This document shows positions 20,775 to 56,172 of a stretch of DNA of 64,000 bases, one piece after another (within the stretch, counting starts at the first letter, position 1; each line of letters starts with the position of its first letter). A program made the translations under genes and the position numbers. Source of the DNA: Pelagomonas calceolata (Eukaryota); the NCBI GenBank assembly GCA_918797485.1, contig CAKKNE010000005.1:5084001-5148000 (forward strand), in the 5' to 3' direction. The notes under the pieces are model-generated. The model saw only the letters and a program-made list of their open reading frames with translations. It was not told the DNA's origin and searched no databases.

Positions 20775-20798
20775 GCTAGTGTCTTACAGGCCGCTAGC
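20775..20798. promoter_or_regulatory. Representative copy of dispersed motif A, GCTAGTGTCTTACAGGCCGCTAGC
   Basis: Other copies at 21042, 31189, 45020(rc), 46683(rc), 49834(rc), 56009; all intergenic. Regulatory role inferred. Confidence 0.55.
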
Positions 20799-21091
20799 CC
20801 ACCTAAGCGCGGGAGCCCTGGAAGCCGCGCCCCGGGGACGGGATCTCCTCAAACTGGCTCATTGCCGAACTGACTCATCGCCGGGCACGCGGACTAAAAC
20901 TTCAATATAGAAGTTGACCGCGGGCCGACACCCACGTCCCATTGAGGCTTGGCGCTTTGGCGCCGTGGGGTGGCGGAACGGACGCATGAGGTCTTGGCCC
21001 CACCGCCGAAAGACCAATCTTGGGGCCCCGCTTGCTTGCTTGCTAGTGTCTTACAGGCCGCTAGCTCATAAAAAAAAACAAAAGGTATAGC

Positions 21092-21823
21092 TTAGTCATA
21101 CGTCTGCCGCATGCGCATCTCCTCCTCCGACCGCCAGACCCGAAAGTGGTCGCCGATGCCCGACTGGCCGTTGAGGCGCTGCTGCTTGACGCGCTCCTTG
21201 CCCGTCGGCTTGGCGCTGCGGTCGCCGCTCCCGCGCTTCGCCGCCGGTTTGGGCGGCGGCGGCGGCGCCGCGCGCTGTTGCGGAGGCGGCCGCCGGCCGG
21301 CCGCGGCGAGGTGCGTGCCGTAGCCGCGCAGGTCGTCGTGCTCGATGTTCGACGCCTGCTTGCCGACCCAGCCCCGGGCGGGGTCGTAGCGTTCGTACAT
21401 GTCGTGGCCGTACTCGCCCTCCTGCGCCTCGCGCGCCGCGCCGGCCGCCGCGGCCGCGCGGGCCGCGACCGCCGCGGACGGCCGCGCCGGGACCGGGTCG
21501 GGCTCGCGCGGCGCCGCGGCCCAGGCGGGCTTGGCGAGCCACGCCGCCGTGCCGCCGCCGTCGAGCAGGCTCGCGGCCGACGGCAGGCCGCTCGTGGAAA
21601 CGGCGGCGGGCGCGGCGGCCTCGGCTTCGTCCTCGGACTCCGACTCCCCTAACAATCCTTCGTCGTGCCGCGCCATCGGCGTGGGAGCTGCAGCAGGCGC
21701 CGGGGATGACCCGTCGTCGTGCCGCGCCGTCGGCGTCGAGGCTGCGGCGGGCGCCGGGGGTGCCGCAGCTGGCGCGTCGGCGTCCGAATCACTGGAGCTG
21801 CCGTAGCCGGCCAAGGCATTCAT
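21092..21823 (-). CDS. Conserved hypothetical nuclear-type protein
   Basis: Starts with LAGYGSSSDSD; ends KERVKQQRLNGQSG...WRSEEEMRMRQTYD, a tail recalled from uncharacterised eukaryotic proteins. Confidence 0.75.
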   Translation of the reverse strand: MNALAGYGSSSDSDADAPAAAPPAPAAASTPTARHDDGSSPAPAAAPTPMARHDEGLLGESESEDEAEAAAPAAVSTSGLPSAASLLDGGGTAAWLAKPAWAAAPREPDPVPARPSAAVAARAAAAAGAAREAQEGEYGHDMYERYDPARGWVGKQASNIEHDDLRGYGTHLAAAGRRPPPQQRAAPPPPPKPAAKRGSGDRSAKPTGKERVKQQRLNGQSGIGDHFRVWRSEEEMRMRQTYD

Positions 21824-22107
21824 GGTTTTGCAGTGCGCTGCTGCAGAAGGCGCAAGTTTGCGCGTTTGATAGTATGGAGCCGATGCGGCGCTTTGGATGA
21901 TGATAGGATGATAGACACACTAGACTCAAAACCGCGGGAAAGATACAGGGAGGGATCCGCCCCGACAATGCCCTCGCTAGGACCCCTAGTACGGTTCACA
22001 CAGCCGCCTCATGTCGTGGTGCGCGCTCTCCGGCGCTAGACAGGAGAGCGCAGCAAGACGCTGCCCAACAAAGGGGAAAGTACGCACATCGACTGGAAAA
22101 CGGCGGC

Positions 22108-24912
22108 ATGGCAGCGCCCTCGCAGCGCATGGCCAGCCAGGCCTCGCCCAAGGCCGCCGTGCGCGACGCCAAGGAGGCGCGCAACGCGCGCATCCGCCGC
22201 TCCGCGTCGTTCCGGTCGAGCATCACGGAAACGCTCTCTCCCCTAGAACAGCTGCACCTGCCCATCGGCTTCGCGTCCGTCCCGCCGGACCACCACAGCA
22301 AGCGCGATAGTCGGAATAGCCTCGACGACGACGTCGAGGTCCACGTCGAACCGCGGAAGATCGTCGTCTCGGACTGCGTGGCCCACGGCGTGCGGGCGCC
22401 GGGCGCGCGCGACGGCATGGTGCTCGTGGCGGACGGCTCGAGGTCGCCGCGGGCGATGAAGCTGTTTCGCGTGATGCGCGGCGACTACTTGAAGCGGCCC
22501 TGGGACGCGGCGCCGCACCTGCTGCCGGACCTGATCAAGCAGGACCGCGAGCCGTGGGAGGACCGCGTAGCACAATGTGTGAAACGGCGGCGCGAGTTGG
22601 AAAGGGCGTTCCGGGCGAAGACGCTGCACGAGCTGGGGCGGGACGACCGCCGGCGCGCGCGCGCGGCGCGGGCGCACAAGGACGCGGCGCTCCTCCGCAT
22701 GGTCGCGCTGGGGGCGCGCGCCGAGTTGATGAAGGGCGAGCTCCTGCGGGACCGCCGCGAGGCCGCCGAGGAGGAGGATGACGACCACGAGGAACAAGCG
22801 GTCGCGGCGACGCCGTCGCCGAAGCAGCGGTCGCGGAGACGCGACCGGCGCAGGGCCGCCGAAGCTTTAACGGGAGAATCGTCGACGAAAATAGGTCGGT
22901 GGTGGCTCGGGCTCAAGATACGGTGGCTCCTCAACGGCATAAGCATCGCGCGGCGCGTCCGCGTCACGCTCACGGTGACCAAGATCACGCAACAGATCAT
23001 AGCCAAGTACCGGAACCGCGTCTATCGACGGAGCGCGGACATCATCCACCACTTCCTGGCCAAGGCCGAGAAGTGCCAGGGCAAGCGCGGCATGAAGTTA
23101 CTCGTGAGGAAGATCAAGCTCGCGCAGCGCATGGTGCGCGGCTGGGTCGCGACGCGGCAGGCGCGGATCGCGGCGTTGCACCGCGCCTTTGCGCTCGCGG
23201 AGATCGACTTCCAGCACGAGCTCGACAGAAGGCGCGTCGAGGTCGAGGTCCACGCTATCCGACGGACATCGCATCCGGACTCCATGTTCTACGCTGTGTG
23301 GAAATCAACCAGTGTGTCGGTTCAGCAAGAAGGCGCCGTGAAATTTTGATTTCCACACAGGTTCTACGACCGCGCCCAGGCTCTGGCTACGGCGGACCAC
23401 CGGCTGCAGGCGATCTTGCCCATCGAGGGCAATAGTCTCGTGGCGCAGGTCTTGCGGAGGGCCGAAATCCGGAGCCGGGATCCGGAACGGGCGTCGCGGG
23501 AGCTTCGGGAAGAGGTCATCGTCGACGACCCGTACCACCACGCGGTGTTCAGTCGCAAAGAGCGGACGAGGACCGTGGAGGAGGTCTTACGAAGAGTGCG
23601 CCGATGGCACGGCACGCACGCCGTCGAGGCCTACGAAAAGTATTTACAGAAGTGCCACGAGGTCCGCGCCGACGACGTCCGCGCCCGTGTAGAAATCAAA
23701 TTTGTCGCGACGCGTCTCCGCTTATGGTTGAATCATAAATTCCACGCCATCGACGCGGCACCTTCTCGACGGCATGGCGGTGTGGGTTTTACACTCGCCC
23801 CTCGCGCTGCGCGGCGCCGTGACGAACGAGCCCGGCGCTCGTGCTCCGCTACGAGCGCGCCGGCGACGAGGCGGTCGAGGACGCGCCCGCGTGGCTGCAA
23901 AGCGCCCCGGTCGTCGTCGAGGTGACCGCAGCAGCAAACCAACAATTGGCGGTCACCGAGGCGCCGGACGTGGTCGGCGTCGTGCGTTTTGAGGGCGTGG
24001 CCGTGGCGCCCGTGCCAGCCAGCACGGGCACGTCGTCGCCGAGAATGACTCTGCGATGCACCCGACTTACTGGTTGATTCATGCACAGGTGCGGATCATG
24101 CTCGCGAAGCCCGGGCGCCTCACACGGCAGGACACGCTCGACGTCCTGCAGCGGCCCGCGGACAAGGTGTCGCGGTACCCCATGTTTCGGCCGCTCACAG
24201 GGCCGCACAACGTTCTCGAGGAGATGCGCGTCGAGCTGGAACCTGTGTGGAAATTTACGGCGCGTTCGTCCTGAATCGCCGCGTATCTAGACCTCCACGC
24301 CATCGCCGCGACGCCTGCTCAATACGTGGCGGTGTCGGTTCCTCACAACTCGACTCAGCCAGCACGGGCACGACGACAAACTGGTTGATTTGATTTCCAC
24401 ACAGGCTGGAACGGGTGCACGCGTGGCGCCACCCGCCGCGCAAGGAGCGGTCGAAGCGCAAGCGCGCGGCGCGCGTCATTCAGGCGCGGTGGCGCGGGAC
24501 CCCGCTGAAGCCCGAGGTGGACCGCGACGCGCTCGAGGCGATCTTCACGGAGTTCTGCCGGGTCTACCGCATGGCCGACATGAACAACACGATCTGGGCC
24601 AAGCTCTGTAGGGAGACGAAGGGGCTGCTGGACGACAAGTTCACGCGCGACTCGGGCATCGACATGATCTGGACGCGCTGCGCGAAGACGAACAAGACCG
24701 TCGGCTTCCCCGTCTTCGAGGCCATGCTGCGCGAGGTCGCGGCCCTGAAGGGCATGGATCTGTTTCAGCTCGAGTCGTTGGTCGTCGAAAACGCGAAAGT
24801 GAAGCAGTCCGGCACCAAAGCCCAGAACGTCAAGTTCTACGAGGTGCCCAAGCCGAAGACGACGAAGGGCGACCAGATCGACCTCGCGTCGATGACGAAC
24901 ACGGGGCGATAA
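22108..24912 (+). CDS. IQ-motif protein with C-terminal p25-alpha/TPPP-like domain (exons 22108-23285, 23361-23676, 24089-24234, 24405-24912; ~715 aa)
   Basis: Four ORF pieces join in frame after removing three introner introns. IQ motifs AQRMVRGW and IQARWRG. LEAIFTEFC...MNNTIWAKLCRE...IDMIW...F..ML.EVA..KG...SGTKAQNVKF resembles TPPP. Confidence 0.75.
23286..23360 (+). mobile_element. Introner intron 3 (GT-AG; element 23294-23360)
   Basis: Perfect TSD gttctacg and perfect 15-bp TIR ctgtgtggaaatcaa / ttgatttccacacag. Confidence 0.95.
23677..24088 (+). mobile_element. Introner intron 4 (GT-AG; element 23685-24088) with ~220-bp internal insertion
   Basis: Ends ccgtgtagaaatcaa / ttgattcatgcacag; TSD diverged (gtccgcgc / gtgcggat). 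Both flanks align with the elements at 36332 and 24243. The phase-0 join fits. Confidence 0.75.
24235..24404 (+). mobile_element. Introner intron 5 (GC-AG; element 24243-24404)
   Basis: Perfect TSD gctggaac; ends ctgtgtggaaattta / ttgatttccacacag. Confidence 0.92.
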
Positions 24913-24927
24913 GACCAAGATAGCTAC

Positions 24928-26355
24928 TCACGTATTATTAGGGTCCCCGCCGCGGGCCGGCGCTGGCGCGGCGCCCGGCTGGTGGTAGTACGCGGGGTAA
25001 CCGTGCACCTGCAGGGGCGACAGGGGGAGCATCTGCGGCGGCGCGTCGGCCGCGGCCGGTGCTCCTGTCGGCGAGCTTGGCAATCCTGTCGGCACGCTCG
25101 CGACGCGGTCGAACAGCTCGTCCACGGCGCACGCCGGGTCCACCGCCGGGAACGCCGCGACGGCCGCGCGCGCGAGGGCCCGCCCCAGCCGCGCCTCGTT
25201 CAGGCCCGCCACGCCCGTCAGCTCCAGCTTGCATAGACGCGCGCAGTCCCGCCGATCGAGCAGGTCCGGACACAGTCGCTTGTCGCGGCACAGCCGCAGG
25301 AAGCCAGCCGGCGACACGTGGCCCACGCCAGTACCTTCCTTGTACGCGTCGAACAGCGCGCGCAACTGGGGCTTCTGCTCCGCCGCCACATCACCGTCGG
25401 AGCGCGGCGGCGGCGCCGGCTTCCGCAGGTCCACTATCTTGGTCTGCTTCAGGGGCGTCTCGAGGGGCACCTCGCTGTGGCGTTGGTCGTCATTTAAAAC
25501 AGAGGGTGATGCCCAGTCCGTGGCCTCGAACTCGTTGCCCTGGCGGGTGTGCATCGGGGTCGCGTGGCGCGCGACGACTTGCGAGACGGCGGCGCAGAGG
25601 TCGGACCAATCTAGGGTTTTGCGCTGAAGCCTAACGACCAATCTAGGTTCCAAGGCTCGCTTCAGGTCGTTCTCCACGTCGTCCGCGGCCTCGGCGTCGT
25701 CCTCCCAGAACGTCTCCGAGGGCGGCGTCAGGAGCACGCCACCTACGACGGGCTGGAGCGCCTGCGCCAGGGCGTCGTTCAGCTCGCGAAGCGACTGCGT
25801 CGTCGCGTCGCGGAACTCCGCTGCCTTCTGTCTTTCTTCTGCCAGCGACGCCTCCGCCGCCTCGGCGCGCCGCTCGAGCAAGAGGACGGTCCGCAGCGCC
25901 ATGTCTTCCTCGTCGTCCGGCGAGTCTTCCTCGTCGTCCGGCGAGTCTTCCACGAAGTCGCCCTCCGGCGCCTCCTCGACAAAAACGGCGTCCTCGCCCC
26001 CCTGGCCCGCGGCCGCGGCGAACAGCGCCTCCTTGCCCGGGCTCGGCGCCAGCTCCGTCGTCCGGCCTTCCACGAGCGACTCCGCGAGCGGCTCGCGCAG
26101 CACGACGGGCCGCGGCGCGTCCTCCGGCAGCTCCTCGACGTACGCGCCCGGAAACAACCCGCCCCGCGGCCGCTCGCCGTCGACGACGACGCCGAACCAC
26201 CACCCGTCGTCCTGCTTCTGGTGGCACTGGACCTCGTCCCCCGCTCTTAGTGACAACTCCTCGGGGCCCTCGGCCACGAAATCGTAGATGGCGCGACACA
26301 GCAGCGTCGGCTCGCCGCGCCGCTCGCGCGCCGCTTTGCGGACGGCTTTGAGCAT
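24928..26355 (-). CDS. SH3-domain protein with coiled coil and C-terminal EF-hand-like region
   Basis: CRAIYDFVAEGPEELSLRAGDEV...DDGWWFG...GLFPGAYVE is a canonical SH3; LRALFDAY...VSPAGFLRLC follows. Confidence 0.85.
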   Translation of the reverse strand: MLKAVRKAARERRGEPTLLCRAIYDFVAEGPEELSLRAGDEVQCHQKQDDGWWFGVVVDGERPRGGLFPGAYVEELPEDAPRPVVLREPLAESLVEGRTTELAPSPGKEALFAAAAGQGGEDAVFVEEAPEGDFVEDSPDDEEDSPDDEEDMALRTVLLLERRAEAAEASLAEERQKAAEFRDATTQSLRELNDALAQALQPVVGGVLLTPPSETFWEDDAEAADDVENDLKRALEPRLVVRLQRKTLDWSDLCAAVSQVVARHATPMHTRQGNEFEATDWASPSVLNDDQRHSEVPLETPLKQTKIVDLRKPAPPPRSDGDVAAEQKPQLRALFDAYKEGTGVGHVSPAGFLRLCRDKRLCPDLLDRRDCARLCKLELTGVAGLNEARLGRALARAAVAAFPAVDPACAVDELFDRVASVPTGLPSSPTGAPAAADAPPQMLPLSPLQVHGYPAYYHQPGAAPAPARGGDPNNT

Positions 26356-26914
26356 TGCGGTTTGCCTGTCGGCCTCCCTTTGTCACCTTATGTGCAGTGT
26401 GCGCGGGCTCTGTCGCCTAATGTACGCGGAATGTACGCGGGCAGCGTCCTGGATGGGCTGCAGCTGCTTGCCTTGGACTATTGCTGGCTGCAGCTGCCTG
26501 GATGGGCAGCGCGTTAGCGGATGGTCTGCTGGCGGCGGTGCTTCGTTGCGGTCAGAGTTGCCCGCGCGTTTCCTCCTCTGTAATTAGCGCGCTCTCCCAG
26601 CTGCAGGCCTGGTGAGACAAACCCCGCCCGCTTAATATTGCACCTGGCCAGTAGGGAGAGGTATACTTGCCGCCGACGTATCCCTGTAGCGCTCGGGCCG
26701 TCCTCTGTTTTCCGTGGCGGCGCCACTGGCCGCGCCGCGGGCAGTCCCCGGTTGGCGCACTCGGTACCGTCTATCACCGACACCACTGGCGCGAAGGCTG
26801 CCCCATAGGATCGTGGGACCCGCCACCGCTCGGTACAGGACGGCTGAGGCGTGACGGCTGCTTGACGCCCGAGAATCTGGAGCCAGTGCCAGCAGGCTGC
26901 CACAGCACGCCATC

Positions 26915-30341: not shown

Positions 30342-31286
30342 TTTTAATTTTTTGTCCTGGGCAGCGCACGAGCGTGTCGACGGGGAGGCGGGCGGTCGCC
30401 GCTTCGGCCGCGCGTCGCACCGGGCGTGACGACGAGAGGCGGTGTCGCGGCCCCGCGGTCCGACGAACCATCTATGTCTGGCCGCGACGCGGTCGACGCC
30501 AGGTCCCGCGCGGCGACCGCCGACGCTCGCGTAGGAACCGCACCGCGTCGCTTCGATCAGAAGCGGTCGCGTCCCGCCGCTCCAGGGCTTGGCGAAGGCT
30601 TCGGTGGCGCTCATCTATCGCTCTGGATGGCCGCGACGCGATCGACGATACGTCTTGCACGGCGGCTGGCGCTTTTCTCGGACGACACACATAGCATCAC
30701 GTCGAAGCAGACTGGAAGCCGTCAGGCGCGGCCTCGGCCTTCCACGGCCCCACGAATGCTATGGCGGTGCCCGAGCGCGTTCAGGGACACGTCGTCCTGA
30801 CGCACGGGCCAGCGCAGGCGCTCGTCGGCATCGCGCCGCACAGGCCGCGGGTCTAGGTATGCGCCGCGCCGGTCAGTCGATCGCTGCTCTCGGCGCCAGC
30901 GAGCGATGCGCACCGCGCGACACGGCGGTTTCGCGGACGAGTCCGCGCGTGGTAGTAATTGTCGAGGCGCCAGCGCGCAGCACGCTGGGACCTCTGCGCT
31001 GACGCAACCGATCGCTAAGCCGCCGCGGTGGCTGGGCTGCTGTGGCGTGCTGTTCAATCTCGCCAGCGCGGCAGCAGCGCTCGTCGCGACTGCGCGACGA
31101 GCTCAAGACCGAGCCGGAGCAGTGCTGGCTTGCGTTTTTTGAGAGATAATTGCACGAGTGTGGCGAGCACGGCCGCGAGAGCTTGCTGGCTAGTGTCTTT
31201 ACAGCACGCTAGCCCTGCTCCGGCGCAAGTTTCAGCTCTCGCGGAGTTTTGAGGGCATTCGAACAACAGTGGTAGCAGTTAACATT

Positions 31287-33429: not shown

Positions 33430-36400
33430 AGCCGCGCCGCGTTCCGCGGCGAGGAGCGTCTCGTAGGTCGCGTCGTCGTCGCCCGGAGCAGCTGCGGCCG
33501 CGGTTTCCTGGGGCGCGACCTTCCGTTCCTTTCGTTTCGGGAAGAGCCGCATGAGCAGCGAGACGCGGCGGCCGGTGTTGCGCACGGAGAAGTTCCTGTG
33601 CAGCGCCTTCAGCGCCCGGCTGCTGCTGATCTTTGCCGTTCGCAGCATGTGGCGCTGGGACCGCTGCTTCATGAGTTTGGAATGCGTCATCGTGTGATGG
33701 GCCTCGACTTTATGTAGCTTCTCGCTCGAGACGGCCCGGAAGATCTGGTAGAAGCGTTGTTGGGCCGCGGACGCCTTCCTGACTTCGGTATCGTGTATTT
33801 GTATCTCTACCAGAATGGAGACCTGTGCATGAATCAACCGGTGAGGCGTCGATGGCGTGGAGGTCATGATTGAGCCGTGGTGGAGACGCGGCGCGACAAT
33901 TTGATTTATGCACTGATCGAGACGTCGTTGCTCGACGGCTTGAACTCGTAGACGGCGTGTAGGTTAAAGGGGACCTGGCGCCGACAGATCTTGTTCTTAA
34001 GTTTTTTTAGCGTGAAGAGCGGGCTTGCCTATGCGCAAATCAATCAATGAGTCGGGTGCCGAGGAACCGGCACCGACGCCATCGAGCTGGCGTCGCGTCG
34101 ACGGCGCGGAGGCCACGATTCAGCAGACGCGCCGCAATGCTTTGGTTTGGGCACTGGGGCTCGCATCGAACGCCGCCTTGACGTCGCACATGGCCTGGGC
34201 CCCGGGGCACACGACCGTCGCGCGCAGCGCGTCGCGCACGAGCGCGCTGACGGGCTGCCACCCGGCGCCCTCCTCAGCCTGATGTTTCTTGGCAATTTCC
34301 GACTTCATCGCCTCGACCATGCGCTCGGCAGTCTTAATGGAGCCCTCCTCACTCACGACCTGTGCGCAAATCAACCAGTGAGTCGGCAATTCTTCACATG
34401 AGAATTTGATTTATGCACTGCTCGCGACGACCACAGCGCCCTCCACCTGCTTGGCGACGTCGGAGAGCGCCGCCGTCAGTGCAGGTAGGCAGGTAGCAGC
34501 GAAGATGCGGAGCAGGGGGGGCAGCACCGTCTGGTCGAGCGCGAGCTTGCCCTTGACGAGGATCTCGGCGTCGGCCTTGAGCGTCGCCTCAGAGGCGCAC
34601 GATTTCATCTGTGTGTGCAAACGAACCGGTCGCTTTCGAGAAGAGAGGGCTGAATCATTGATATAGGGCACTGGCCTCGACGGCAGCCACAACAGCCTCC
34701 GTGAGGTTGGTCCCGGCGCCGCCGCGCCAGATCAATCGCTGCTGAGGCTGTGGGTCGCTTCTCTCCGGGTTGAGCTCTTTGACCTGCCTCAGCACGTCAA
34801 GCAGATCCGGCGACAGCAGCTCCTCGGTGATGTAGTCTTCGAGCTCGTCCGCGCGCGCCTGCGCCTCGCACCGTAGCCAGGCCCAACGCGTCGGAACGAA
34901 GTCCTTGGCCTTTGCCCATTCCTCGTCGTCAACCTCGTCGTCGGCATCGTCGCCAGCTGCGTCGGGCGCAGGGCCGCGCGCGAGCTTGAACCGAGCCGGC
35001 CGTGGCGGCGCCGCGGCTTCGTCGACGTTGGCGGCTGCGTCAGGCGCTGACGGCGCGTCGGCCTCCGGCGCGGGCGCGAGCTTAAAGCGCGCTGGGCGCT
35101 GTGGCGCCCCGGCCGGCGCAGCGGCGACGGCTGCGCCTGGCGCGAGGAAGGCCGAGGCTCGTTCCACGCGGCGCTGCGCATCGCTTTTCGCCCGGGCGGC
35201 GACTCTGCGGTACCAGTGGCGGATGCGGTGCTGCTCGTGCGCTTCGATAAGCGGCTCGCGCCAGAATGTGTGCAAGGAACAAATTTGGCTCCGAAATATA
35301 CCCCACTGCGTATCAGCCTGTGTGAAACTCAACCACTGAGTCGGGTGCAACACCGCCCGCCATCGAGGAGACATTGCGTTGATGGCGTCGAGATCGACGC
35401 GATGATTCGAGACCAAGGCTCCGTGAAATTCAATTTATGCACTGGTATCAGCATTTGTGTCGCTCCAGGCGAAGTCCCCGAGATAGCCGTCGACGATGGC
35501 TTCGAAGGTCGCACTCTCGAGCAGGTGCCTGCGTAGGAAAACACCAACGTATATACCGAACGATTGTCAGCAAATCGAAACAAGTCGAAGGCTTTATCTT
35601 CTGCACCGGAAAGTGCTCGCCGCCCTCCGTGCACAACGTCTCGAACTCGAATCGGAAATTCTCCGTGCGCAGGCGGCGCCTGTGCGCAAATCAATCAGTG
35701 AGTTGGGTGCACGTCGATGGCGAGACGCGCCGCGACGATTTGATGTATGCGCTGGGCGGCGCCGAATGCGCGCGCAGAGCGTCCGGATCGGCTTCTCGTA
35801 GGCGTAGCGGCGCACCGCCAGGACCAGCACGAAAACCTGGGCCGCGACGAGCGCACCCGACCTATGCGGAAATCAAACGTTCGGGTGAATAAGCCCAAGA
35901 CGCCTCGTGCGAGGACGACAAGCACTCTCGTGCTGCATCAAGGCTGCCAGAATAATAAATAATACCTCCAGGCCGGCCTGACGCACTGTTGATTTCCGCA
36001 CTGCACCCGACACGATGCGGAGCTGCTCGAGCTTCAGTGTCTTCTGCGTGCAGCAGAGCGCCATGAAGAACGTCGACGTGACGAAGAACCAGGACGTGTG
36101 CGCGACCGTGTTCACCGCTGGCGACTGGAAAGGCTCGCCGTCGGCCTGTGTGGAAATCAAATTTTACCGCGCATTCGTGCTGAATCATCCGACGCACTGG
36201 TTGATTTCCACACAGCCGTCGACGATGGCCAGCGCATAGAGCAGCGAGATGACGAACGAGAGCACGAGTCGCATGCGCCGCGCCCCGGGCAGACAGACGA
36301 GGAGGAAGCCGCTCAGCGAAGTGCGCACGACCTGTGCATAAATCAAATTCTTGCGGCGCGTCTCCGCCACTGCTGAATCATGGCCTCAACGCCATCGACG

Positions 36401-39400
36401 CGACGCCAGCTCCATGGCGTGGCGGTGTGGGTCCTACACCACTCGATTCAGTCATCAAGGTCGCGTTGTCGCATCAAGGTCGCGTTGTCGCATCAAGGTC
36501 GCGTTGTCGCCGAGAAACGACTTAGTGAAGAATGATCGGGTGCATGCGACTCACTGCTTGATTTTCACACAGCGCACGACCATGGAGAGCGGCTCGGCGA
36601 ACCAGGCGCCCTTGCGGTAGGGCCGGACGAGGGGCGTCGGCCGCAGGATGTCGCTGAGCGCCTCGCAGTCGACGCAGCTGCCGAACGTCGCGCGCCGCTG
36701 GCGGATTTGCTCGAGGAGGAGCACGGCGAAGAAGAGGCCTGTGTGGAAATCAACCGGTGGGTCGGGTGCACCCGACAATTCTTCAATCAGTCGTTTCTTG
36801 GCGCTGACGCGGCCGTCCTGGCTCGATCGAGCGGCGAGGAATCGACATCGCCACGCCATCGAGCAGGCGGCGCGTCGATGGCGTGGAGGACGACGCGACG
36901 GTTCAGGACGAACGCGCCGTAAAATTTTGATTTCCACACAGGAAGAGGCCCGGCAGGCCGACGACGTAGATGAGGCAACACAGGATGGCGTAAGCCCGGT
37001 AGGCCTGGTACCTGTGCGAATATCAACCAGTGTGTCGGGTGCACCATCGAGCAGGCGTCGCGTCGATGGCGTAGAGGTCGACGCGGCGATTCAGGACGAA
37101 CGCGCAGTGAATTTGATTTTCACACAGCCTGGTACCGCTTGGACGACGCCCGGATGGTGTAGTCCCGCGCGAGGTAGAGCTCGCGCTCCGTCGCCGACGT
37201 CCGGAAGCCGCGCTCGTCGGCCGTGTGGTACTCGACGCCGTCCAGGTGGAAGAACTCGAAGAGGACCGAGCAGACCGTCGCGTGGCACATGATGAGGAGC
37301 ACGGCGAGCCGCCGGCAGGCGCGCCGCTTCGCGTCGGGGTCGCGCGAGCAGAGCGACACGAGCGCGACGACGAGGACGAGGTAGAGGGGCAGGAGCGTCG
37401 CCATGAGCAGCGTGTGGTAGTACGACCAGCCCGCGCAGGGCGTCGGCAGCCAGGCGGCGAGGTCGAAGGTCACGAGCGCGTAGATGCGCATGAGCCACTT
37501 GAACGCCCCCGGGTAGTCGACGTCCTCGACGCTCGAGAAGCGCACGAGGACCGCGAGCGAGTGCCAGATCGCGAGCGCGCACGTGCTCGTCAGGAAGCTC
37601 CAGACCTCGCGCTTCGCCGCGCGCCAGACGCGCACCGCGCGCCAGCCCTCGCACGAGAGGGCCGCCGGCCAGCGGCAGCCGCAGAGCGCCCCGAGCGACG
37701 CCGCCGCGGACCACGCGACCGCGCCGACGAGCGCCAGGGCGACGATCATGGCGACGGCGTAGACGACCCGCAGGAAGACCGACGGCCTGGCGCCGCACCG
37801 CTTGCACCGGCGCAGGACGGGCTCGAGGTAGTAGCCGTCGTCGCAGAGCTGGCAGAGCGGCCCGCGGTGGTGCTTGGCGCAGAGCGCGTTGCCGCTCGAG
37901 TTGCCGCTGGCGCAGCCCTCGTTGCGCTTGCCTGTGTGGAAATCAACCAGTGAGTTAGGTTAGACCTTTGTGAACCTCCACGCCATCGAGCCGACGCGGC
38001 CACGGGGACAACGTCGCGTCGATGGCCTGGAAATTCCACGCCATCGAGCAGACGCAGCTACAGAGACAAGTGGGGCGCCCGAAATTCGATTTCCACACAG
38101 GCGCCTGCAGCGGTAGATGGCCGGCGTGTCCATCGAGAAGCGGTAGAAGCCCGCGCGCACGCCCCAGGGGCTGCCGAGCGTCGAGCCCTGCGGGCACGTC
38201 GCCGACCAGGGGCAGCCGTGGCACGTCCGGTTGTCGTAGTAGTAGTCGCGCTCGCACACGTCGCAGGCCGCGGCGCCCGGCGCGCTCCAGCGCCCGGCGC
38301 CCTCGGTGCGGCAGCTCTCGCAGAAGGTCTGGCCGGCGCTCCGCGCGAAGCGCCCCGCCGCGCACGCCTCGCACGCCGCGCGGCCCGACTCGGGCTGGTT
38401 CCGGCCGGCCTCGCACGCGAGGCAGACGCGCGCGCCGGCGGCGCTGACCTTGCCCGCGTCGCAGGCGTCGCACTGGACGTTCAGCGGGCTGGCCGCCGTC
38501 AGCTCGGCGGCGCGGCCCGCCTCGCAGGCCTCGCAGCGCTGCTGCCCGGGCGCGGACTGGTAGCGGCCGTTCGGGCACTTGGCGCACGCCGTCGCGCCGT
38601 CGGCGTCGCTGTACGTGCCCGGCGCGCACGGCAGGCACGTCGCGCGGTCGGGCGAGTACGAGCCCGCGGGGCACGTCGCGCAGTAGAGGCCCAGCGGCGA
38701 GTAGCTGCCGGGGTCGCAGTCGACGCAGGCGATGGTCCCGCCGGGCAGCGGGCTCTCGCGCTGGCCCCGGGCGCAGCGCGAGCAGCTCTGCGAGCCCGTC
38801 GCCGCGAACTTGCCCGCCTCGCAGGGGAGGCAGCTGCCCGAGCCGGGCGCCGTGTTGAAGGTGTCGAGCCCGCACGGCCGGCAGCTCTCCTGCCGGTGGT
38901 CGGGCTGGAAGTAGCCCGCGGCGCAGGGCGTGCAGGGCGCGACGCCGCCCGCGCCGTACGTGCCGGCGCGGCAGTAGCGGTCGGACTCCCGCGTCGGCGC
39001 GAGCGTCGGGTCCGACGACGGCGCCGGCGTCGGCCGCGGCGTCGGCCGCGGCGACGGCGCGGGCGTCGGCCGCCGCGACGGCAGGGGCGTCGTGGGGCCC
39101 GGCGTGGGGCCCGGCGACGGGCCCGGCGTCGGCCGCGGCGAGGGCGCGGGCGTCGGCGCGACGGAGGGTGCCGGCGTGGGCTTCGGCGACGGCTTCGGCG
39201 TCGGCGCGGGCGTCGGGTTTGGCGTCGGCTTCGCTGTTGGTCTTGGCGTCGGCGCGAAGACCGGCGCGGCCGTGGGATCGCCGGGCACGGGCGTCGGGTC
39301 CGGCGTCGGTTTCGGGGTCGGGCGTGGCGAGGGCGAGGGCGTCGGCTTCGGCGTGGGTACCGGCGACGGTCGGGGCGTCGGGGTCGGGGTCGGCCGCGCG

Positions 39401-44799: not shown

Positions 44800-45206
44800 C
44801 GCATTGCTGCTCCTATCAGGCAGCTCTACGCTGTCGTGCGCCCAAATCGCCGGCAAATGCAGGCAGCACCAAGTCTTGGTGCATGAACTATCAGGCAGCT
44901 GCAGCACGCTGTCGTGCGCCCGCAAAAAAATGCCAGCAAATGCAAAAAGCACTTGGTTCGAGACAAATGCAGCGCGAACGGCCAGGAACAGACGCGTGCG
45001 CAAAAGTTGAAGCCGCCTTGCTAGCGGCATGTAAGACACTAGCGCTGCTGCGAGCTTACGTACACGTCGGGAGGTTGACGAGCGTAGCGTCCGCATCCAG
45101 GTGATAAGCTTGGTTTGACGCGTGCTTGGCTGCCTCCACCCGCCCGCGCAGCGAGGCGACAAAAGCAGCCCTTGCTGACACTCGAGCACATTGCTCCAGG
45201 GGCAAG

Positions 45207-46589: not shown

Positions 46590-46903
46590 TGTTAGTTTAT
46601 TTATCTAGAGGTCGACGCATCAGTGGCCCGGGCACGTCGTGGGCCGGCGGCGGCGCAGGCGGCGCGATTTTTGAGGTTGACGGCTAGCGGCTGTAAGACA
46701 CTAGGAAAATGGGCTGTGGGTCCAATTTGGTGCGCAGCTACGCTTGCGCTGCGCACGCCTGCAAGGGCCGCCGGCTGTGCCTCCTCAGGCTACCGCGGCG
46801 CTCGCATCTCTGCGGCGCGAGCATCGCTGCGGCGCGCGCGCGAGCTTGAATAATAGCGAAGCACCGCCGCCGCCGCCTGCGCGCGCGGGCGCGGCGCAAC
46901 GTC

Positions 46904-49640: not shown

Positions 49641-49985
49641 CGCTACGACGCTCTGCAGGCACGATCGGTATCAGCTTGTGCACACTGCAGGCTCGGGCAC
49701 CTGCACAGGCACGAATGACAACGACGGTCCCTAAGCGCTTCAGCTGCGCCGTGGACGTTCAGAAAACGCCGCGACGCCCTTCCCAAACTTTCTTGCTCAG
49801 CCCAGAGCCTGCTTATTTCACCGAGGCCTCAGGGCTAGCGGACTGTAAGACACTAGCTTTTTCACCAGGGCTGCCGCGTCGTACAAAACGAGCGATAATC
49901 GCGTACGGGGTGTTGTTAAAGCGCTCGAATCGCTGTCAAACGTCCACGCCTGCCTCCTGCAGCATCACTAAAACGCAGCGAGAAG

Positions 49986-50103
49986 AGCAGCACTGAAAAA
50001 CAGGCGGACGCAGTCGCACAGTCGACGCCAGGCGCAGCGCGAGGAAAGCAGCACTGAAAACAGGCGCAGCAGTCGCACAGTCAACGCGAGGCGCAGCGCG
50101 AAG
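49986..50103. repeat. Imperfect tandem duplication, ~60 bp x2, directly upstream of the helicase ATG
   Basis: agcagcactgaaaa(a)caggcg..gcagtcgcacagtc.acgc.aggcgcagcgcga occurs twice. Confidence 0.85.
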
Positions 50104-50104
50104 A

Positions 50105-53100
50105 ATGGCCTGGCGCGGCCGAGGCCGAAGCTACGGCAAAGGTAAAGGTTATGGACGAGGCGGCAAGGGCAAGGGCCGCGGGCGCGGGAGAGGCCGCGGG
50201 CGCGGCGCCACCAGGACCTGGACGCGCGACAAGACGGCCGCGGACCGGCGCGAGGCCCTGCCGGTGACGCAATTTAAAAAACAGATCGTCGAGCTGGTCG
50301 CGGCGAACCGGGCCGTCGTCATCACGGGCGAGGCCGGCTGCGGCAAGTCGACGCAAGTGCCCCAATATATTATTGATGCGCCGCGGCCGGAAAACGAACG
50401 GGAGCCGCGCGTGCTCGTGACGCAGCCGCGGCGCGTCGCGGCCGTGAGCGTCGCGCGGCGCGTCGCGGCGGAGCGCGGCGAGGCCATCGGCCAGTCCGTG
50501 GGCTACCACGTCGCGGGCGACCGGCGCGGCGCGCCGGCCGCGGGCGAGGTCGACGAGGCCGCTTTGGACGAGGAGCTCGACGCCTACCAGCGCGAAGGGA
50601 AAGATGAGGACGACGACGACGAGGAGCTCCGGGCCGTGCCCGCGGCGCAGGGATCGGTCAACAAACCGGCGAAGTGCGTCTACATGACGACCGGGGTGCT
50701 CTTGCAGTTACTCACCCATCATAGAGACGACACGGCCATGAACTACTCCCACATTTTGATCGACGAGGCGCACGAGCGCGACGTCGACATGGATCTCGTG
50801 CTGGTCACATTAAGGCGGATGGTCATCGACGGGCGCACCTCATCGAAACGCGTCCCGAAGGTCATCATCATGTCGGCGACCGTCGACGCGCAGCGGTTGT
50901 GTGGCTTCTTCGGCGACCGGACGCCGCATTTGCACGTCGGCACGCGGCCCTACCCCGTGCGCGTCCACGACCTCGAGGAGGTCATCCAGAAGTCGCGGTC
51001 GACGGAGTTCCGCATCGAGCCCTGGAGCGAGTACGTGCCCAAGGACACGCAGAACGCGCGGTTCGAGCGCGAGGCGTCGCGGGCCTGCGTCAGCGTGCTC
51101 AAGGCCCTCATGGACGCGGACTTCGAGGCGAGCCTCCTGCCGCCCGACACCGAGTCGAGCACGCGCAAGGACGTCCTCGTCTTCGCCCCGGGCGTCGCGG
51201 AAATCGAGGAGCTCGAGAACTTGTGTCGGAAGGAGGGCGTCCAGCGGCTCTACGACGTGTTGCCTTTACATGGAGCTCTCGACGACGAGCAGCAGCGCCA
51301 CGCGCTCACGACGCCCGAACATTCCGAGAAAAGGCGCTGCGTCATCACGACGAATGTCGCCGAGAGTTCCGTGACGGTGCCCGGCGTGCGCTTCGTGATT
51401 GATTTTGGTCTTGAAAAATTGCCGGTCTATGATCCGCGGACGCGGACGCAAGCTTTGCTGACGAGACACTGCTCCCGGGCGTCGTGCGCGCAACGAGCGG
51501 GCCGCTGCGGCCGCGTCGCGCCGGGCGCCTGCATCCGGCTCTACAGCCAGAAGATCTATGGGTCCATGCCGCCGTACATCCCTCCGGAAATTGTGCGCGC
51601 GCCCCTGCCGACGGTGGCCCTCAAGGCGTTGTTGTTGGATGACCAGCCGGCGCAGCTATTGGCCGAGGCCCTCGACGCGCCGCAGCGGCGCGACGTGTTG
51701 GACGCTCTACAATCGCTCGTGAAGATCGGGGCGATTCGGAGAATTGGAGAGGACTTCGAGGTCGAGCCCCTCGGCGAGTTGGTGGCTCGCTTGGAGGTCG
51801 ACGCGAACATTGGGAGGCTCGTGGCCTTCGGGGCGGCCCTGGGGTGCTTGGACGACATGTGCGTCGTCGCCGCGGCCGTGTCGCTGAGGGACGTCTTCCT
51901 GCAGCCCTTCGAGGCCGGCAAGAAGAAGGCCGAGGAAGCGACGGAGGGCGACCCCTTGGCTCTAACCTTAGACCAGGGCCGGCAGGAGGTGGCCCACTTC
52001 CTCCCTCGGCGACGGATCACGGAACAACAACAATTCTCCGACGCTCTCGCGACAGTCGCTATTTTAAGGGAGTTCAAACGGCGACTAAGGACGCAGTCCC
52101 GAGATGATGCGGCCAGATACGCGCGCCAGAACCACGCCTCGTTTAAACGCCTGGTGGAAGTGGACGCGTTGTCTCGGAGGTTGGGCGACACGTACGATCG
52201 ACTCATCGCAAGACGACAAAAAAGACCGAGAGGCGCCCTGCAACGATTAAGACGCGCGCGGAACGGTCTGCAGCACCTCCTGAAAAAACAACCTGCTTTA
52301 ATTACGACGGCAAAAAAATTCGCCCTCTTATGTTGCTTCGCGCCGTTGGTCGCGGTCTCGGACGGCTGCGAGCAGTCGACGGAGCAGAGGGGTATATTGC
52401 GGTTCCGCGTCGAGCCCGCGCGGCCCCGGGAATCATTCACAGAGGACGCGAAGAAGGCGCGCCAGGCCTTCGACAAGTGCGGCGCGACGGACGCGCGCCT
52501 GTATCGGGAGGGCGAGGAGGACCGGATGGAGGAGGAGGCACCGCCCGCGCCCGCGCCGGCGCCCGCGCCCACCGAAACGACGACCACCCAACCGCTGGAC
52601 ATCGAGGGCCTGAGCGGCAACGAGGACGACGAGGACGCGGAGCAAAAGGCCCGCGACGCGGATTTTGATGCCGTCTACGAGGGCCTGGACACGAAGCCCG
52701 ACGCCATGGAGACGGACGAAACGCCCGTGTATTTAGAGCTGACGACGCGGTCGGCGCAGGACGCGGTCGCGTGCGCGCGCATGGCCGGCGTGCGCGGGTC
52801 GTTAAGGTTGCCTCTAGGTCGGGACGGGTCCTTGCACCTGCGCGACCCGCAGCTCAAGGCGGCGACGCTCCAGTTCCGACGACCGGGCGCGTCGGCGCAC
52901 GTCGAGCCGACGTGGTCGTCGCCGAACGCGCGCTTCTTCGTGGACCCCTACGGGTCTGCGGCCACGCGGCGGCGGTGGCTCGTCGCGCCGTGCTTCTCGT
53001 CGCGCGGCGCGTCGAAGACGCGGCAGCTCGCGCACTCGCCGACGTTGCTCCCGGCGGAGCCGCGCGGCGCGGCGGAGTTATTATTACTGGCCTGCTCGCG

Positions 53101-53542
53101 CGACGTGCGGTGGCTGCTGGATGATGATAGGATCGTGGGCGTCGAGCTGTTCGGGACGCAGGCGCCGGACTCGTTGATTGTGCCGCTCGTGACCAATATT
53201 GACGCGAAGGACGTGCGCCTCCTGAACAAAGTCCGGGAGGCCCTATCCAAAAGTTGCCGGGACCCCGACGGCGCGCCGGGCGCGGCCGTGCAGCCGCTAG
53301 TGGACCTGCTGGACCGTGCGGACCGGGAGCCGTTCGAGGGGCTTGATAGTTTCGCCGAGGCGCAACTGCTGCCGGGCGTCGACGAGGAGGAGGTGTTGCT
53401 GGCGCCGCTGTCGCGCGTGGGTATGGCGGCGCTCGAGGAAATTGAGGACAACGGCAAGCGGGAGCGCGACGACGACGAAGCCGTCGAGGAGGAGGCGGCG
53501 CCGACCCAGGATCTCAAACGTGCTCGGTTGGCGGACTACTGA
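50105..53542 (+). CDS. DEAH/RHA-family RNA helicase with N-terminal RG-rich tail
   Basis: GEAGCGKSTQVPQY, TQPRRVAA, DEAHER, MSAT, TNVAESSVT, QRAGRCGR, HA2 region. Confidence 0.95.
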   Translation: MAWRGRGRSYGKGKGYGRGGKGKGRGRGRGRGRGATRTWTRDKTAADRREALPVTQFKKQIVELVAANRAVVITGEAGCGKSTQVPQYIIDAPRPENEREPRVLVTQPRRVAAVSVARRVAAERGEAIGQSVGYHVAGDRRGAPAAGEVDEAALDEELDAYQREGKDEDDDDEELRAVPAAQGSVNKPAKCVYMTTGVLLQLLTHHRDDTAMNYSHILIDEAHERDVDMDLVLVTLRRMVIDGRTSSKRVPKVIIMSATVDAQRLCGFFGDRTPHLHVGTRPYPVRVHDLEEVIQKSRSTEFRIEPWSEYVPKDTQNARFEREASRACVSVLKALMDADFEASLLPPDTESSTRKDVLVFAPGVAEIEELENLCRKEGVQRLYDVLPLHGALDDEQQRHALTTPEHSEKRRCVITTNVAESSVTVPGVRFVIDFGLEKLPVYDPRTRTQALLTRHCSRASCAQRAGRCGRVAPGACIRLYSQKIYGSMPPYIPPEIVRAPLPTVALKALLLDDQPAQLLAEALDAPQRRDVLDALQSLVKIGAIRRIGEDFEVEPLGELVARLEVDANIGRLVAFGAALGCLDDMCVVAAAVSLRDVFLQPFEAGKKKAEEATEGDPLALTLDQGRQEVAHFLPRRRITEQQQFSDALATVAILREFKRRLRTQSRDDAARYARQNHASFKRLVEVDALSRRLGDTYDRLIARRQKRPRGALQRLRRARNGLQHLLKKQPALITTAKKFALLCCFAPLVAVSDGCEQSTEQRGILRFRVEPARPRESFTEDAKKARQAFDKCGATDARLYREGEEDRMEEEAPPAPAPAPAPTETTTTQPLDIEGLSGNEDDEDAEQKARDADFDAVYEGLDTKPDAMETDETPVYLELTTRSAQDAVACARMAGVRGSLRLPLGRDGSLHLRDPQLKAATLQFRRPGASAHVEPTWSSPNARFFVDPYGSAATRRRWLVAPCFSSRGASKTRQLAHSPTLLPAEPRGAAELLLLACSRDVRWLLDDDRIVGVELFGTQAPDSLIVPLVTNIDAKDVRLLNKVREALSKSCRDPDGAPGAAVQPLVDLLDRADREPFEGLDSFAEAQLLPGVDEEEVLLAPLSRVGMAALEEIEDNGKRERDDDEAVEEEAAPTQDLKRARLADY

Positions 53543-53651
53543 TAATGGCTTGTTTACTAGTTCTCTTCCTAGATATCAGCTTCCCCATTTAAGACTACAT
53601 GATTGATTAGGCCTCGCCTAGCCGTCGCCCGTCGCCGATCCGCGGACGACC

Positions 53652-54464
53652 TCAGATAGTCGTACCCGGGACTTCCGGTACGCTTTCGTCGTCTTGATCC
53701 TCGTCGCTTTCCATGGGCGCGGGTGCGCTCTCCATGGCGGAATCCGAGGCGGTGGCCATCTGGTCCGCGGGCGGCGGCGGAGGAGCCGCGGGTGGCACCT
53801 CCGGAGCGGGCGGCGGCGGAGGACCCGCGGACGCGTCCGCGGCGCGTTCCAGCTCGTTCGGCACGAACTTACGCGGTACTGCGTCGTCCGCCGGGCTGTC
53901 CTGGCCGTCGTCCTCGTCGGGCTCGTCCGGGAAGTTCAGGTGCGAATGCACGAGCTCGGGCATGTACCTCCGGACGAAGGCGTCGACGGCGCGCGCCGCC
54001 TGCTTTTCCTGCGCGCGACGAAACCGTCACGGACTCACGGTAGCCTCTGGCGAGCCTTCGAACGAACGAGCGAGGCTTCGGACGCCGACCCACGCATGAT
54101 CAAACAGGCCGATGTTGTAGACTTGGCCCTCGTAACCTAATCGTTTTGCGAGGCGGACGGCCGCCCGCCAGCGGCCCTTCTTGCGGTCCCAGGTGACGCC
54201 GTAGAAGCTCGATTGAAGCGGGCCGAAGTCGTGCTCGTTGCCGGTGTCGTCGTCGGACTCCGAGTAATCCTCTTCATCGTCGTCCGACGCGGGCGGCGGG
54301 GGTGGCGCGGCCGGCTCGTTCGCGGCGCCGCTCGCGAGCCACAAATCGTAGAGCGCCAGCGTGTCCGGGTGGATCGGTGGCCGCGTGGGGTCCGCCGAGG
54401 CATCGATTGTTGCGAGTAGGTTTTGAGCGAGGGCTCCCGCCGGGATGGAGGCTTTTGCGGTCAT
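53652..54464 (-). CDS. AP2-domain transcription factor (exons 54464-54096, 54008-53652; GC-AG intron; ~241 aa)
   Basis: SSFYGVTWDRKKGRWRA...IGLFDH|EKQAARAVDAF...LNFP completes the AP2 domain across a phase-0 intron. Confidence 0.8.
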
Positions 54465-54750
54465 CGCGCAGTGACCAAGACTTTTGACCTGCCTTCACAA
54501 AATTCGATTCCCGAGCCTCCAGAGATGCTGTCTCCGCGCTTGTGACTGCTCCTCTGTGATTGTGTATTGTCCCTGCGTCTCTCAACTCTCCTTGTCGCTC
54601 GACGAGCTCGCAAAGGCAAAAAAAAATGGCCCTGAAAAACCCGTTTTTTAGGCCGACGCCTGAGCGAGGCTGACCGGCCCACGCCGTCGCCGCGAACCAT
54701 CATCCACGATATAGTATGCACTTAGACGGGGGCCGGGGGAAACGAAATAT

Positions 54751-55836
54751 CTAGGCCACGCCGTACATCTTCCGCTCCGTCGTACGAGAAACCGCGGCGA
54801 CAATGTCCTCGACTTGCGGTAAAGACATCTTTTCGAGGGGAATGGCGTAGGCCATCGGCACGTCGGCGCCCGTCACGCGCTCCACCGGCGCGTCGAGGTA
54901 GTCGAAGGCGTCCGACTCCATGACGACCGCGCAGATCTCCGCCGCGATGCCGCACTGCGGCCAGCCCTCCTCGACGGCCACGAGGCGATTCGTCTTCTTG
55001 ACGGAGTTGATGATGGCGTCCCGGTCCAACGGTCTCAAGCTTCTTAAATTGAGCACCTCCGCGCTGATCCCTTGCGCTGCTAATTCTTCAGCCGCATCCA
55101 AACAGTAGCCGACCATCTTGCTGAACGTTACTAATGTAACATCAGTACCTTCCCTTTCGATGTGCGCCTTACCTAACGGCAACACGAAATCTTTGGATTG
55201 AGCCTCGTCCGACAGGGGGAAGGACGTGCCATACAATAACTCGTTCTCCAGAAACACGACCGGATTCGGGTCCCGGATCGCGGCCTTGAGCAACCCCTTG
55301 GCGTCCTCGGCGTTGTAGGGCGCCACCACCTTCAACCCGGGGCACTGGCTGAACCAACTCGCGAAGCACTGCGAGTGCTGCGCCGCGACGCCCGCCGCCG
55401 CGCCGTTCGGGCCCCGGAAGACGATCGGCACGTTCATGTCGCCGTTGCTCATGTAGGCCTGCTTCGCCGCGGAGTTGACGATCTGGTCGATCGCCTGCAT
55501 CGCGAAATTGAACGTCATGAACTCGCAGACCGGCTTGAGGTCCTTGTAGGCCGCGCCCGTGCAGATGCCCGCGAAGCCCATCTCCGTGATTGGGGTATCA
55601 ATAACTCTGCGCTCCCCGTATTTCTGAAACAAACCCTTCGTGACCTTGTAGGCGCCCTGGTACTGGGCCACTTCTTCGCCCATCACAAACACGGCGTCGT
55701 CGGCCTCCATTTCTTCGTCCATGGCCATGTTCAGCGCTTCTCTGATCGTGACGTCGACCGAGGCGAAGCGGCGCGCGGCCGTGCCGGGGCGCGCTCGCAG
55801 CGCCGTCGTGCGCGCGGCGCGGAGCAGTGATGCCAT
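54751..55836 (-). CDS. PDHB: Pyruvate dehydrogenase E1 beta subunit, mitochondrial
   Basis: [50 protein letters not shown]; Arg/Ala-rich presequence. Confidence 0.98.
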
Positions 55837-56172
55837 GGTCAGGGGTCTTCTTTACTTAAGCACAAGGTTTGACTCGTTCCGCTGCAGTTTCGCGGCGACG
55901 AAGCCTTCTTAGCTACAAAAGGAGCTTACGCGACGGTAAATTGATTGCTGCGAGCAACCAGGAACCACAAGGCAGCGCCGCAAAGGCTGAATGGCCGCGA
56001 AGGTGCTTCTAGTGTCTTACCTGAAGTACAGGCCGCTAGCGAAACTTTGCTGCGCACGCGTCTACAAAAACCGTCGCAGAGACTCCTCCAGACGGCCTGA
56101 GGACCCCTGCAATGCGCGAGCATGAAAAAGTTTGAGCAGCAGCCCATTTGAGTGCAGCCTTTGGCGCCGCCC

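What the first reader, a model, noticed from the sequence alone, without database searches (positions are those of the whole stretch)
20775..56040. Recurrent intergenic motif A: GCTAGTGTCTTACAGGCCGCTAGC
Seen: seven copies, at 20775, 21042, 31189, 45020(rc), 46683(rc), 49834(rc) and 56009. All are intergenic, mostly 70-280 bp upstream of starts, and three sit in divergent promoters (oxygenase/desaturase, rsmH/helicase, PDHB/ORF). It is bounded by two CTAG palindromes and is AT-richer than the background, so chance recurrence seems unlikely. Inference: an undescribed core-promoter or general TF site, a nucleosome-excluding element, or the relic of a tiny mobile element.
Basis: partly seen in the sequence, partly recalled or inferred. 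Interest (0 to 1): 0.7.

Follow-up and report, generated by a model that had tools for sequence, protein, structure and literature searches.

The report
Retroposon tail kept as intergenic signal
A 24-letter DNA word that recurs between genes in this marine alga is the end piece of a longer repeated element, likely a retrotransposon. Most copies have lost the rest but keep both CTAG ends almost unchanged, which suggests the host likely uses them as protein-binding signals near where genes start and stop.

Summary
All seven copies are real, and three shorter relatives lie at 16860, 19961 and 57764. A capped metagenome scan gave 126 more copies at 121 loci, none in predicted coding sequence. The flanks are unrelated and carry no target-site duplication.

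The motif is the fixed end of a longer non-coding repeat. 10 of 138 copies carry the body, always on the same side; window 20799-21030 is one. Other copies break off at staggered 5' points. On the other strand the motif is followed by AAGC and poly(A) in two metatranscriptomes. This is non-LTR retroposon anatomy, but no reverse transcriptase was found.

Solo copies do not decay evenly. The CTAG ends change at 2 of 208 sites and the interior at 45 of 364. 19 of 21 left halves keep the right CTAG. Two RNA 5' ends lie 23-30 nt away.

Best reading (0.5): a retroposon 3' end kept as a protein-bound intergenic site. Binding is untested.

The parts
20775..20798 (+). motif A copy 1 (exact); its reverse strand is the 3' terminus of the repeat
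20766..20774 (-). AAGC plus A5 tail remnant 3' of copy 1; metatranscriptome contigs extend it by 17-21 A
   Evidence: table 7 (X15, X20)
20799..21030 (-). 5'-truncated body (E1) of the longer non-coding repeat; reads and other copies continue beyond 21030
21031..21041 (-). (AAGC)n tail of copy 2, joined head-to-tail to the truncated end of copy 1
21042..21065 (+). motif A copy 2 (exact, solo), 27 nt past the stop of the 21823-21092 gene, whose few RNA reads end near it
31189..31213 (+). motif A copy 3 (1-nt insertion, spacer GCAC)
45020..45043 (-). motif A copy 4, in the divergent gap before the desaturase
46683..46705 (-). motif A copy 5 (1-nt deletion), between the desaturase and a Ulp1-type protease gene
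49834..49857 (-). motif A copy 6, in the rsmH/helicase divergent gap
56008..56040 (+). motif A copy 7 with a 9-nt insertion that duplicates TA, upstream of PDH E1-beta
16860..16881 (+). related type-B copy (CTAG-N12-CTAG)
19961..19982 (+). related type-B copy; RNA of the 19799(-) gene fades out in the bin just before it
57764..57785 (+). related type-B copy
45073..45073 (+). pile-up of RNA 5' ends of the desaturase gene, 30 nt past copy 4
   Evidence: table 6 (10 molecules at depth 22 and 10 at depth 16; one sample)
20750..20752 (-). pile-up of RNA 5' ends of the 20516(-) gene, 23-25 nt past copy 1
   Evidence: table 6 (11 at depth 31, 6 at depth 25; run X21 only)

Best explanation
The motif is the fixed end of a longer non-coding repeat, likely the 3' end of a non-LTR retroposon, and most copies have lost the body but keep both CTAGs, likely because a host DNA-binding protein recognises them in the gap between genes. 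Shown: the repeat, the one-sided attachment of the body, the poly(A) right after the AAGC tail, and the uneven conservation. Inferred from protein translations of contigs: the staggered 5' break points. Inferred: RNA ending in the reverse-strand motif, AAGC and poly(A) is reverse-transcribed into accessible intergenic DNA by a LINE enzyme that I did not find. The body is cut short at insertion or lost later. The CTAG-N13-15-CTAG core is then kept by selection as a bipartite site that works in either orientation and helps set where neighbouring transcripts begin (about 25-30 nt away in two cases) and perhaps where they end.
For: Body next to the motif in 10 of 138 copies, always on the same side; all 7 strong body hits had a motif within 90 nt. 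Window body 20799-21030 is covered by variant wild contigs, and reads run on past 21030. Frameshift-ridden ORFs without Pfam hits on ENA contigs share this 3' part and leave it at different 5' points. Two of them (P0023, P0078) read through into the motif in register, and P0078 is a head-to-tail tandem like the window's. 17-21 T precede the GCTT+motif end in 3 contigs from two studies. In 26 copies found without the search pattern, the CTAGs differ at 2 of 208 sites, the interior at 45 of 364 (p about 1e-7) and the outer G/C at 11 of 52. The AAGC tail is intact in only 34 of 128. 19 of 21 left halves keep the right CTAG, against 31% under geometric truncation (p 2e-8). The outer pair shows no covariation (86 vs 85.9), which points to sequence rather than RNA-stem constraint. 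0 of 27 copies lie within 65 nt of an ATG, against 7.3 expected (cut-off chosen after seeing the data). The motif sits at the same site in an 86%-identical orthologous promoter (L017/L105).
Against: No reverse transcriptase, endonuclease or transposase in 150 of 152 flanking proteins scanned or among the read-through ORFs. No target-site duplication in 130 copies. The poly(T) contigs are tied to the motif end, not shown to carry the body, and contigs show neither strand nor RNA versus DNA; one library was oligo-dT primed. Only two 5'-end pile-ups were seen, both from one culture sample, and X22 did not list the 20750 one. There is no initiator-like CA or YR peak at a fixed distance in 128-131 flanks. 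Orientation relative to starts is not significant. In tandem gaps 8 of 15 copies are nearer a stop than a start. Other copies lie inside mature RNA (66, 102 and 112 reads). No binding data exist.
Confidence: 0.5

Rival explanations
1. Selfish minimal retro-unit with no host role. The reverse transcriptase needs the CTAG-bounded end and usually stops just after copying it. Any RNA ending in the motif is a source, so intact CTAGs reflect selection for being copied, and copies survive only in untranscribed gaps where they do no harm.
For: Sharp right edge. Recurrent spacer variants such as TGCC, CGAC and GCAC look like subfamilies. A second family shares about 200 nt of right flank only (L035/L062). 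The motif is in opposite orientation in an orthologous gap (L026/L053). The positional data fit tolerance as well as function.
Against: Copies would all have to be young, yet tails and outer bases are eroded while the CTAGs are not. No covariation and no folding signal above shuffles. Same-site retention at 86% flank identity.
Confidence: 0.25
2. Host site first. The motif is an older host binding or 3'-end site, and one retroposon family captured a copy at its end. That family explains only the roughly 7% of copies with a body; the rest arose by other duplication or by turnover.
For: 128 of 138 copies show no body, and flanks are otherwise unrelated. Type-B and intermediate variants keep only the CTAG-T-R-T and CTAG halves. 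A host mRNA seems to end at copy 2 (3-7 reads).
Against: The weakly constrained spacer still has one dominant ancestral state (GGCC in 43 of 97 four-base spacers). Solo copies also carry the remnant AAGC tail. Both point to common descent from the repeat.
Confidence: 0.2
3. A 14-bp DNA element or excision footprint inserted at CTAG, with the two CTAGs as its target-site duplication.
For: CTAG-duplicating events do occur at this motif (L115 versus L006). The G and C just outside the CTAGs are symmetric.
Against: A duplication should decay as fast as the insert, but here it is far better kept. The flanks are asymmetric, and the attached body lies outside the right CTAG. No empty-site allele was seen, though the test had little power.
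Confidence: 0.05

Closest known systems
Stringent-type LINE/SINE 3' ends (Ohshima 2013, PMC3747384; passages read)
   Same: A conserved 3'-terminal sequence, 5' truncation at various positions, and a poly(A) or short-repeat tail.
   Different: That review gives truncated LINE members as 100-1,000 bp, with a stem that shows compensatory changes. Here about 93% of copies are only 24-28 nt, the stem-forming CTAGs are nearly invariant without covariation, and no partner LINE was found.
Trypanosomatid SIDER/DIRE retroposons and the Pr77 hallmark (PMC5814959; passages read)
   Same: Degenerate non-LTR retroposons spread a short conserved hallmark, which can act as a promoter, through a protist genome (over 2000 SIDERs in Leishmania).
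   Different: Pr77 is the 77-nt 5' end and includes a ribozyme. Here the kept part is the 24-nt 3' end, it lies mostly between transcripts, and Rfam finds nothing.
Sap1 sites of fission yeast and Tf1/Tf2 LTRs (PMC5371812; passages read)
   Same: A host-factor site is carried by a retroelement; the factor defines nucleosome-depleted regions and attracts insertions. Here the motif's left CTAG is a hotspot for a second insert.
   Different: An LTR element with a known factor. Here there is no LTR structure and the factor is unknown.
Pelagophyte introner elements (PMC9481584 section 6 and supplement note 3)
   Same: An abundant short repeat in the same kind of genome.
   Different: Introners are about 210-bp introns with splice sites and terminal inverted repeats. 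This motif is intergenic, 24 bp long, and no splice joint was listed at it.

Membership tests
Non-LTR retroposon (LINE or SINE) | Shared 3' end with staggered 5' truncations | tested here: met
   Break points of ENA copies are inferred from protein translations, not DNA.
Non-LTR retroposon (LINE or SINE) | Poly(A) or short tandem-repeat 3' tail | tested here: met
   17-21 T in 3 contigs from two studies; one or more AAGC units in 34 of 128 genomic copies. Long genomic A tails are mostly absent.
Non-LTR retroposon (LINE or SINE) | Target-site duplication | tested here: not met
   130 copies, k=3-8, observed equals shuffled. Some clades and old copies lack one (recalled), so membership is left open.
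Non-LTR retroposon (LINE or SINE) | Reverse-transcriptase-encoding parent or partner with the same 3' end | tested here: inconclusive
   None; no whole genome was held.
SINE | tRNA-, 5S- or 7SL-derived head with Pol III boxes | not testable with these tools
   DNA of the 5' end could not be fetched. The window copy has no tRNA or Rfam hit.
Stringent LINE/SINE tail | 3' stem-loop with compensatory changes | tested here: inconclusive
   A 5-6 bp stem can form, but z is -0.3. The outer pair shows no covariation, and the CTAGs are too invariant to test.
MITE / cut-and-paste DNA transposon | Terminal inverted repeats on both ends plus a target-site duplication | tested here: not met
   No duplication; body on one side only, with variable far ends.
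LTR/TRIM element with solo LTRs | Constant internal region between two direct repeats | tested here: not met
   In three tandem cases (window, L096, P0078) the far junction differs, and most body-bearing copies end in host DNA.
General-regulatory-factor or core-promoter site | Position-specific sequence constraint | tested here: met
General-regulatory-factor or core-promoter site | Fixed distance and orientation to transcription starts | tested here: inconclusive
   Two cases at 23-30 nt. No orientation bias and no initiator peak.
General-regulatory-factor or core-promoter site | Bound by a protein, or needed for open chromatin or initiation | not testable with these tools
   Needs footprinting, pull-down or reporter tests.
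Intrinsic nucleosome-excluding poly(dA:dT) element | AT-rich homopolymer tract | tested here: not met
   58% GC, equal to the local intergenic DNA.
UGUAA-type polyadenylation signal | Sense-strand enrichment downstream of stop codons | tested here: not met
   TGTAA 9 sense vs 12 antisense in 100 downstream regions. The sample is biased by motif-selected loci.

The most novel reading that the evidence does not exclude
A 24-28-nt retroposon tail has become the standard boundary element of this alga's compact genome. It would be present about 2,000-3,500 times, end upstream transcripts and set downstream start sites through a dedicated CTAG-pair binding protein, still be seeded into new gaps by reverse transcription, and itself be targeted by other transposons.
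Probability: 0.2. Interest if true: 0.85.

Novelty: new variant of a known kind. Interest (0 to 1): 0.58.

Why it matters
I found no promoter or boundary element described for pelagophytes in the searches listed. [quoted passage not shown] The motif gives a concrete 24-bp bait for finding the factor and a candidate part for transgene promoters. It also makes testable how a gene-dense genome gains regulatory sites: by retroposition of one short RNA end, rather than by point mutation. If there is no host role, it would still be an unusually small self-spreading retro-unit.

Tried and rejected
No whole genome was held, and the metagenome records could not be searched further. Viral contigs had 0 hits for the motif and for two body patterns. 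Genome contigs had 0 hits for the body and 5 for the motif. Four of these sit in eukaryote-like pieces of marine MAG contigs, and one in a 39%-GC contig is taken as chance and dropped.

Splice-site reading (the motif contains TCTTACAG and GTAAG): rejected, since copies are intergenic and no joint was listed at them (one search hid 139 joint rows). Helitron or CACTA end: rejected from the sequence layout (family features recalled). Small RNA: only an E 0.99 Rfam hit elsewhere, and no tRNA. A coding body: rejected, since frames shift between copies and there is no Pfam hit. Walking to an RT ORF failed. An empty-site allele was not found, but the test had little power. Functional bias of neighbouring genes: none evident among 150 Pfam-scanned proteins (read by eye). 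L035/L062 first looked orthologous but share only the right flank. Five look-ups of earlier findings gave nothing relevant. The introner paper PMC5684705 was not held.
Full report
Observation. The seven copies are present: two exact, two with one substitution and three with indels. Four ungapped matches compare with none in 100 shuffles. Of 13 CTAG pairs within 40 nt in the window, 9 have spacing 16-19, and all 9 belong to this family: six type A and three shorter type B. A tenth pair is copy 7 with its insertion. Type B has 3 window matches against 0 by chance, and none in 126 loci; L019 and L125 hold intermediates. The motif is 58% GC, like its intergenic setting. The host is a GC-rich, gene-dense cultured marine eukaryote with a chromosome-scale contig.

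It is genome-wide. DNA contigs from other loci match only 45020-45043, with unrelated flanks (18 and 15 contigs, agreement about 0.4). The scan pattern fixed 18 positions, so these copies cannot be used for conservation inside them. None lay in predicted coding sequence (my own Markov model trained on window ORFs, and 44 of the 126 are in loci too short to call genes well). The density is 7 per 64 kb here and 20 unselected copies in 302 kb of flanks. That extrapolates to roughly 2,000-3,500 in a 32-Mb genome with 16,667 genes (size and gene count from PMC9481584; inference). Neighbouring genes are diverse, with no RT or transposase in 150 of 152 proteins. There is no external target-site duplication in 130 copies.

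Position. Nearest starts are 67-382 nt away on either side. 0 of 27 copies with genes on both sides lie within 65 nt of an ATG, against 7.3 expected (post-hoc cut-off, 5 of the 27 from the window). 58 of 81 sides face a start, against 63% (window) or 59% (loci) for random intergenic bases (p 0.066 and 0.013). Left and right do not differ (p 0.22). In tandem gaps 8 of 15 copies are nearer the stop. RNA 5' ends pile up 30 nt past copy 4 and 23-25 nt past copy 1 (one of two runs), both from one culture sample. The motif thus sits mostly in the untranscribed middle of gaps, which fits either function or tolerance. Some copies elsewhere are inside mature RNA.

Origin. 10 of 138 copies continue on the right into a shared body, E1. 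All 7 strong body hits had a motif within 90 nt on the same side (the loci were chosen for the motif, but four of the ten are secondary copies). Apart from this family and one pair (L035/L062), flanks are unrelated. Window 20799-21030 is a long piece of the body: wild metatranscriptome contigs tile it with variants, and reads in X21, X15 and X20 run on past 21030 into sequence the window lacks. Searching with its reverse-strand frames found 12, then 14, then 23 partly overlapping ORFs (the first two sets are from ENA contigs, and P0073 is unrelated low complexity). They shift frame between copies, have no Pfam hit and leave the shared sequence at different 5' points. Several run straight into host coding sequence (P0011, P0064, P0065). 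They imply at least about 0.6 kb of body, probably 0.9-1.1 kb (inferred from translations). P0023 reads through a variant motif in register. P0078 reads the motif and then a truncated body, the same head-to-tail join as copies 2 and 1 in the window and as L096. Three contigs from two studies carry 17-21 T before the GCTT at 20766-20774, so the reverse strand reads motif, AAGC, poly(A); these contigs are not shown to hold the body. A fixed 3' end, a tail, staggered 5' ends and tandem joins are what non-LTR retroposition gives (PMC3747384, passages). The missing items are a target-site duplication and an RT (one search also negative), so I say it works like a non-LTR retroposon and leave membership open.

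Constraint. I took 26 copies found by edit distance of 5 or less after dropping the match that brought in each locus; 6 are from the window, and copy 7 and type B are not included. The two CTAGs differ at 2 of 208 sites, TGTCTTACA at 19 of 234, the GGCC spacer at 25 of 104 and the outer G and C at 11 of 52 (p about 1e-7). The AAGC tail is intact in 34 of 128. 19 of 21 unselected left halves keep the right CTAG. A geometric truncation model fitted to the 7% body-bearing share predicts 31% (a crude model). The outer pair does not covary, and folding is no better than shuffles. The motif is at the same site in an 86%-identical orthologous promoter (L017/L105) and in opposite orientation in a more distant orthologous gap (L026/L053). 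This pattern suits a two-half-site protein contact with a loose spacer. Selection for being copied by the RT could mimic part of it, which is the main rival.

Mechanism and odds. Retroposon-seeded and host-retained binding site, 0.5. Selfish minimal retro-unit without host role, 0.25. Host site captured by one retroposon family, 0.2. CTAG-duplicating DNA element, 0.05. Shown: repeat nature, one-sided body, tail, uneven conservation and position. Inferred: the staggered break points (from translations), reverse transcription, selection by the host and protein binding. A UGUAA poly(A) signal role was not supported, although the UAA triplet dominant in diatoms (PMC6413133, passages) lies about 13 nt before the tail.

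Literature. Full-text searches for both strands of the core gave one unrelated paper and none. Topic searches (listings and abstract starts only) showed no description of this motif or repeat. In PMC9481584 I read passages, section 6, a search of four supplements and the first of two parts of supplement 2; one file and the figure pages had no text. In bioRxiv 10.1101/2024.10.30.620910 I read passages; it reports about 6% mostly unclassified repeats in P. calceolata, and I did not see its supplements, which may list this family. PMC5814959, PMC5371812, PMC3747384 and PMC6413133 were read as passages. Subscription papers and repeat databases were not searchable, so novelty is provisional.

Verdict. 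A real, abundant and apparently undescribed element. It is a new variant of a known kind (transposon-derived cis-element), unusual in that a 24-28-nt 3' terminus is what persists. Interest 0.58.

Noticed in passing
L037, L038, L041, L070, L073, L074, L099, L115 (left CTAG of the motif); L006 lacks it: A 6-7-nt insert (GGATGC or its reverse complement), sometimes with CTAG duplicated, abuts the motif's left CTAG in 8 of 139 cases. Among 1,413 other CTAGs the only 2 hits are two of these same sites read on the other strand. It is polymorphic between 98%-identical loci. Likely the footprint of a CTAG-targeting transposon that prefers this motif.
   Followed up: partly
window 56008-56040 and L015 about 1335 (minus strand): Both carry an insertion at the same TA inside the motif, with TA duplicated and a 4- or 7-nt filler starting CCTG; this resembles Tc1/mariner footprints (recalled).
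   Followed up: no
window 16860, 19961, 57764: Type-B variant (CTAG-N12-CTAG); the 19961 copy, the only one folded, forms an 8-bp hairpin (z -3.6). Three copies in the window, none in 126 motif-selected loci.
   Followed up: partly
flanks of motif copies; predicted 5' regions: The word GGGCAGCC or its reverse complement is about tenfold enriched left of the motif (20 loci vs 1.9 expected) and is scattered upstream of ATGs; a second candidate promoter word.
   Followed up: partly
window 20016-20054; L043, L047, L057, L078, L083, L092: Another small intergenic repeat family with two CTAGs 6 nt apart, often near motif A.
   Followed up: no
L035:745-940 and L062:93-287: Two unrelated loci share about 200 nt starting exactly at the motif; possibly a second retroposed RNA with the same end.
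   Followed up: partly
L020 about 4000-4100 (minus strand): Telomere-like CCCTAA repeats about 70 nt beyond a truncated body copy.
   Followed up: no
window 23330-24370 and 33850-37110: About 200-bp repeats with inverted ends, also in L006, L016, L019, L031, L032, L060 and L063; probably introner elements.
   Followed up: no
L122, L123, L125, L126: Eukaryote-like pieces with the motif sit at the ends of contigs in four marine bacterial or archaeal MAGs, probably chimeric assemblies; L125 and L126 share 765 nt at 94.6%.
   Followed up: partly
window 57591-57670: About 100 RNA reads with fixed differences map here and run on into other sequence, so a paralogous transcribed repeat lies just left of type-B copy 57764.
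   Followed up: no
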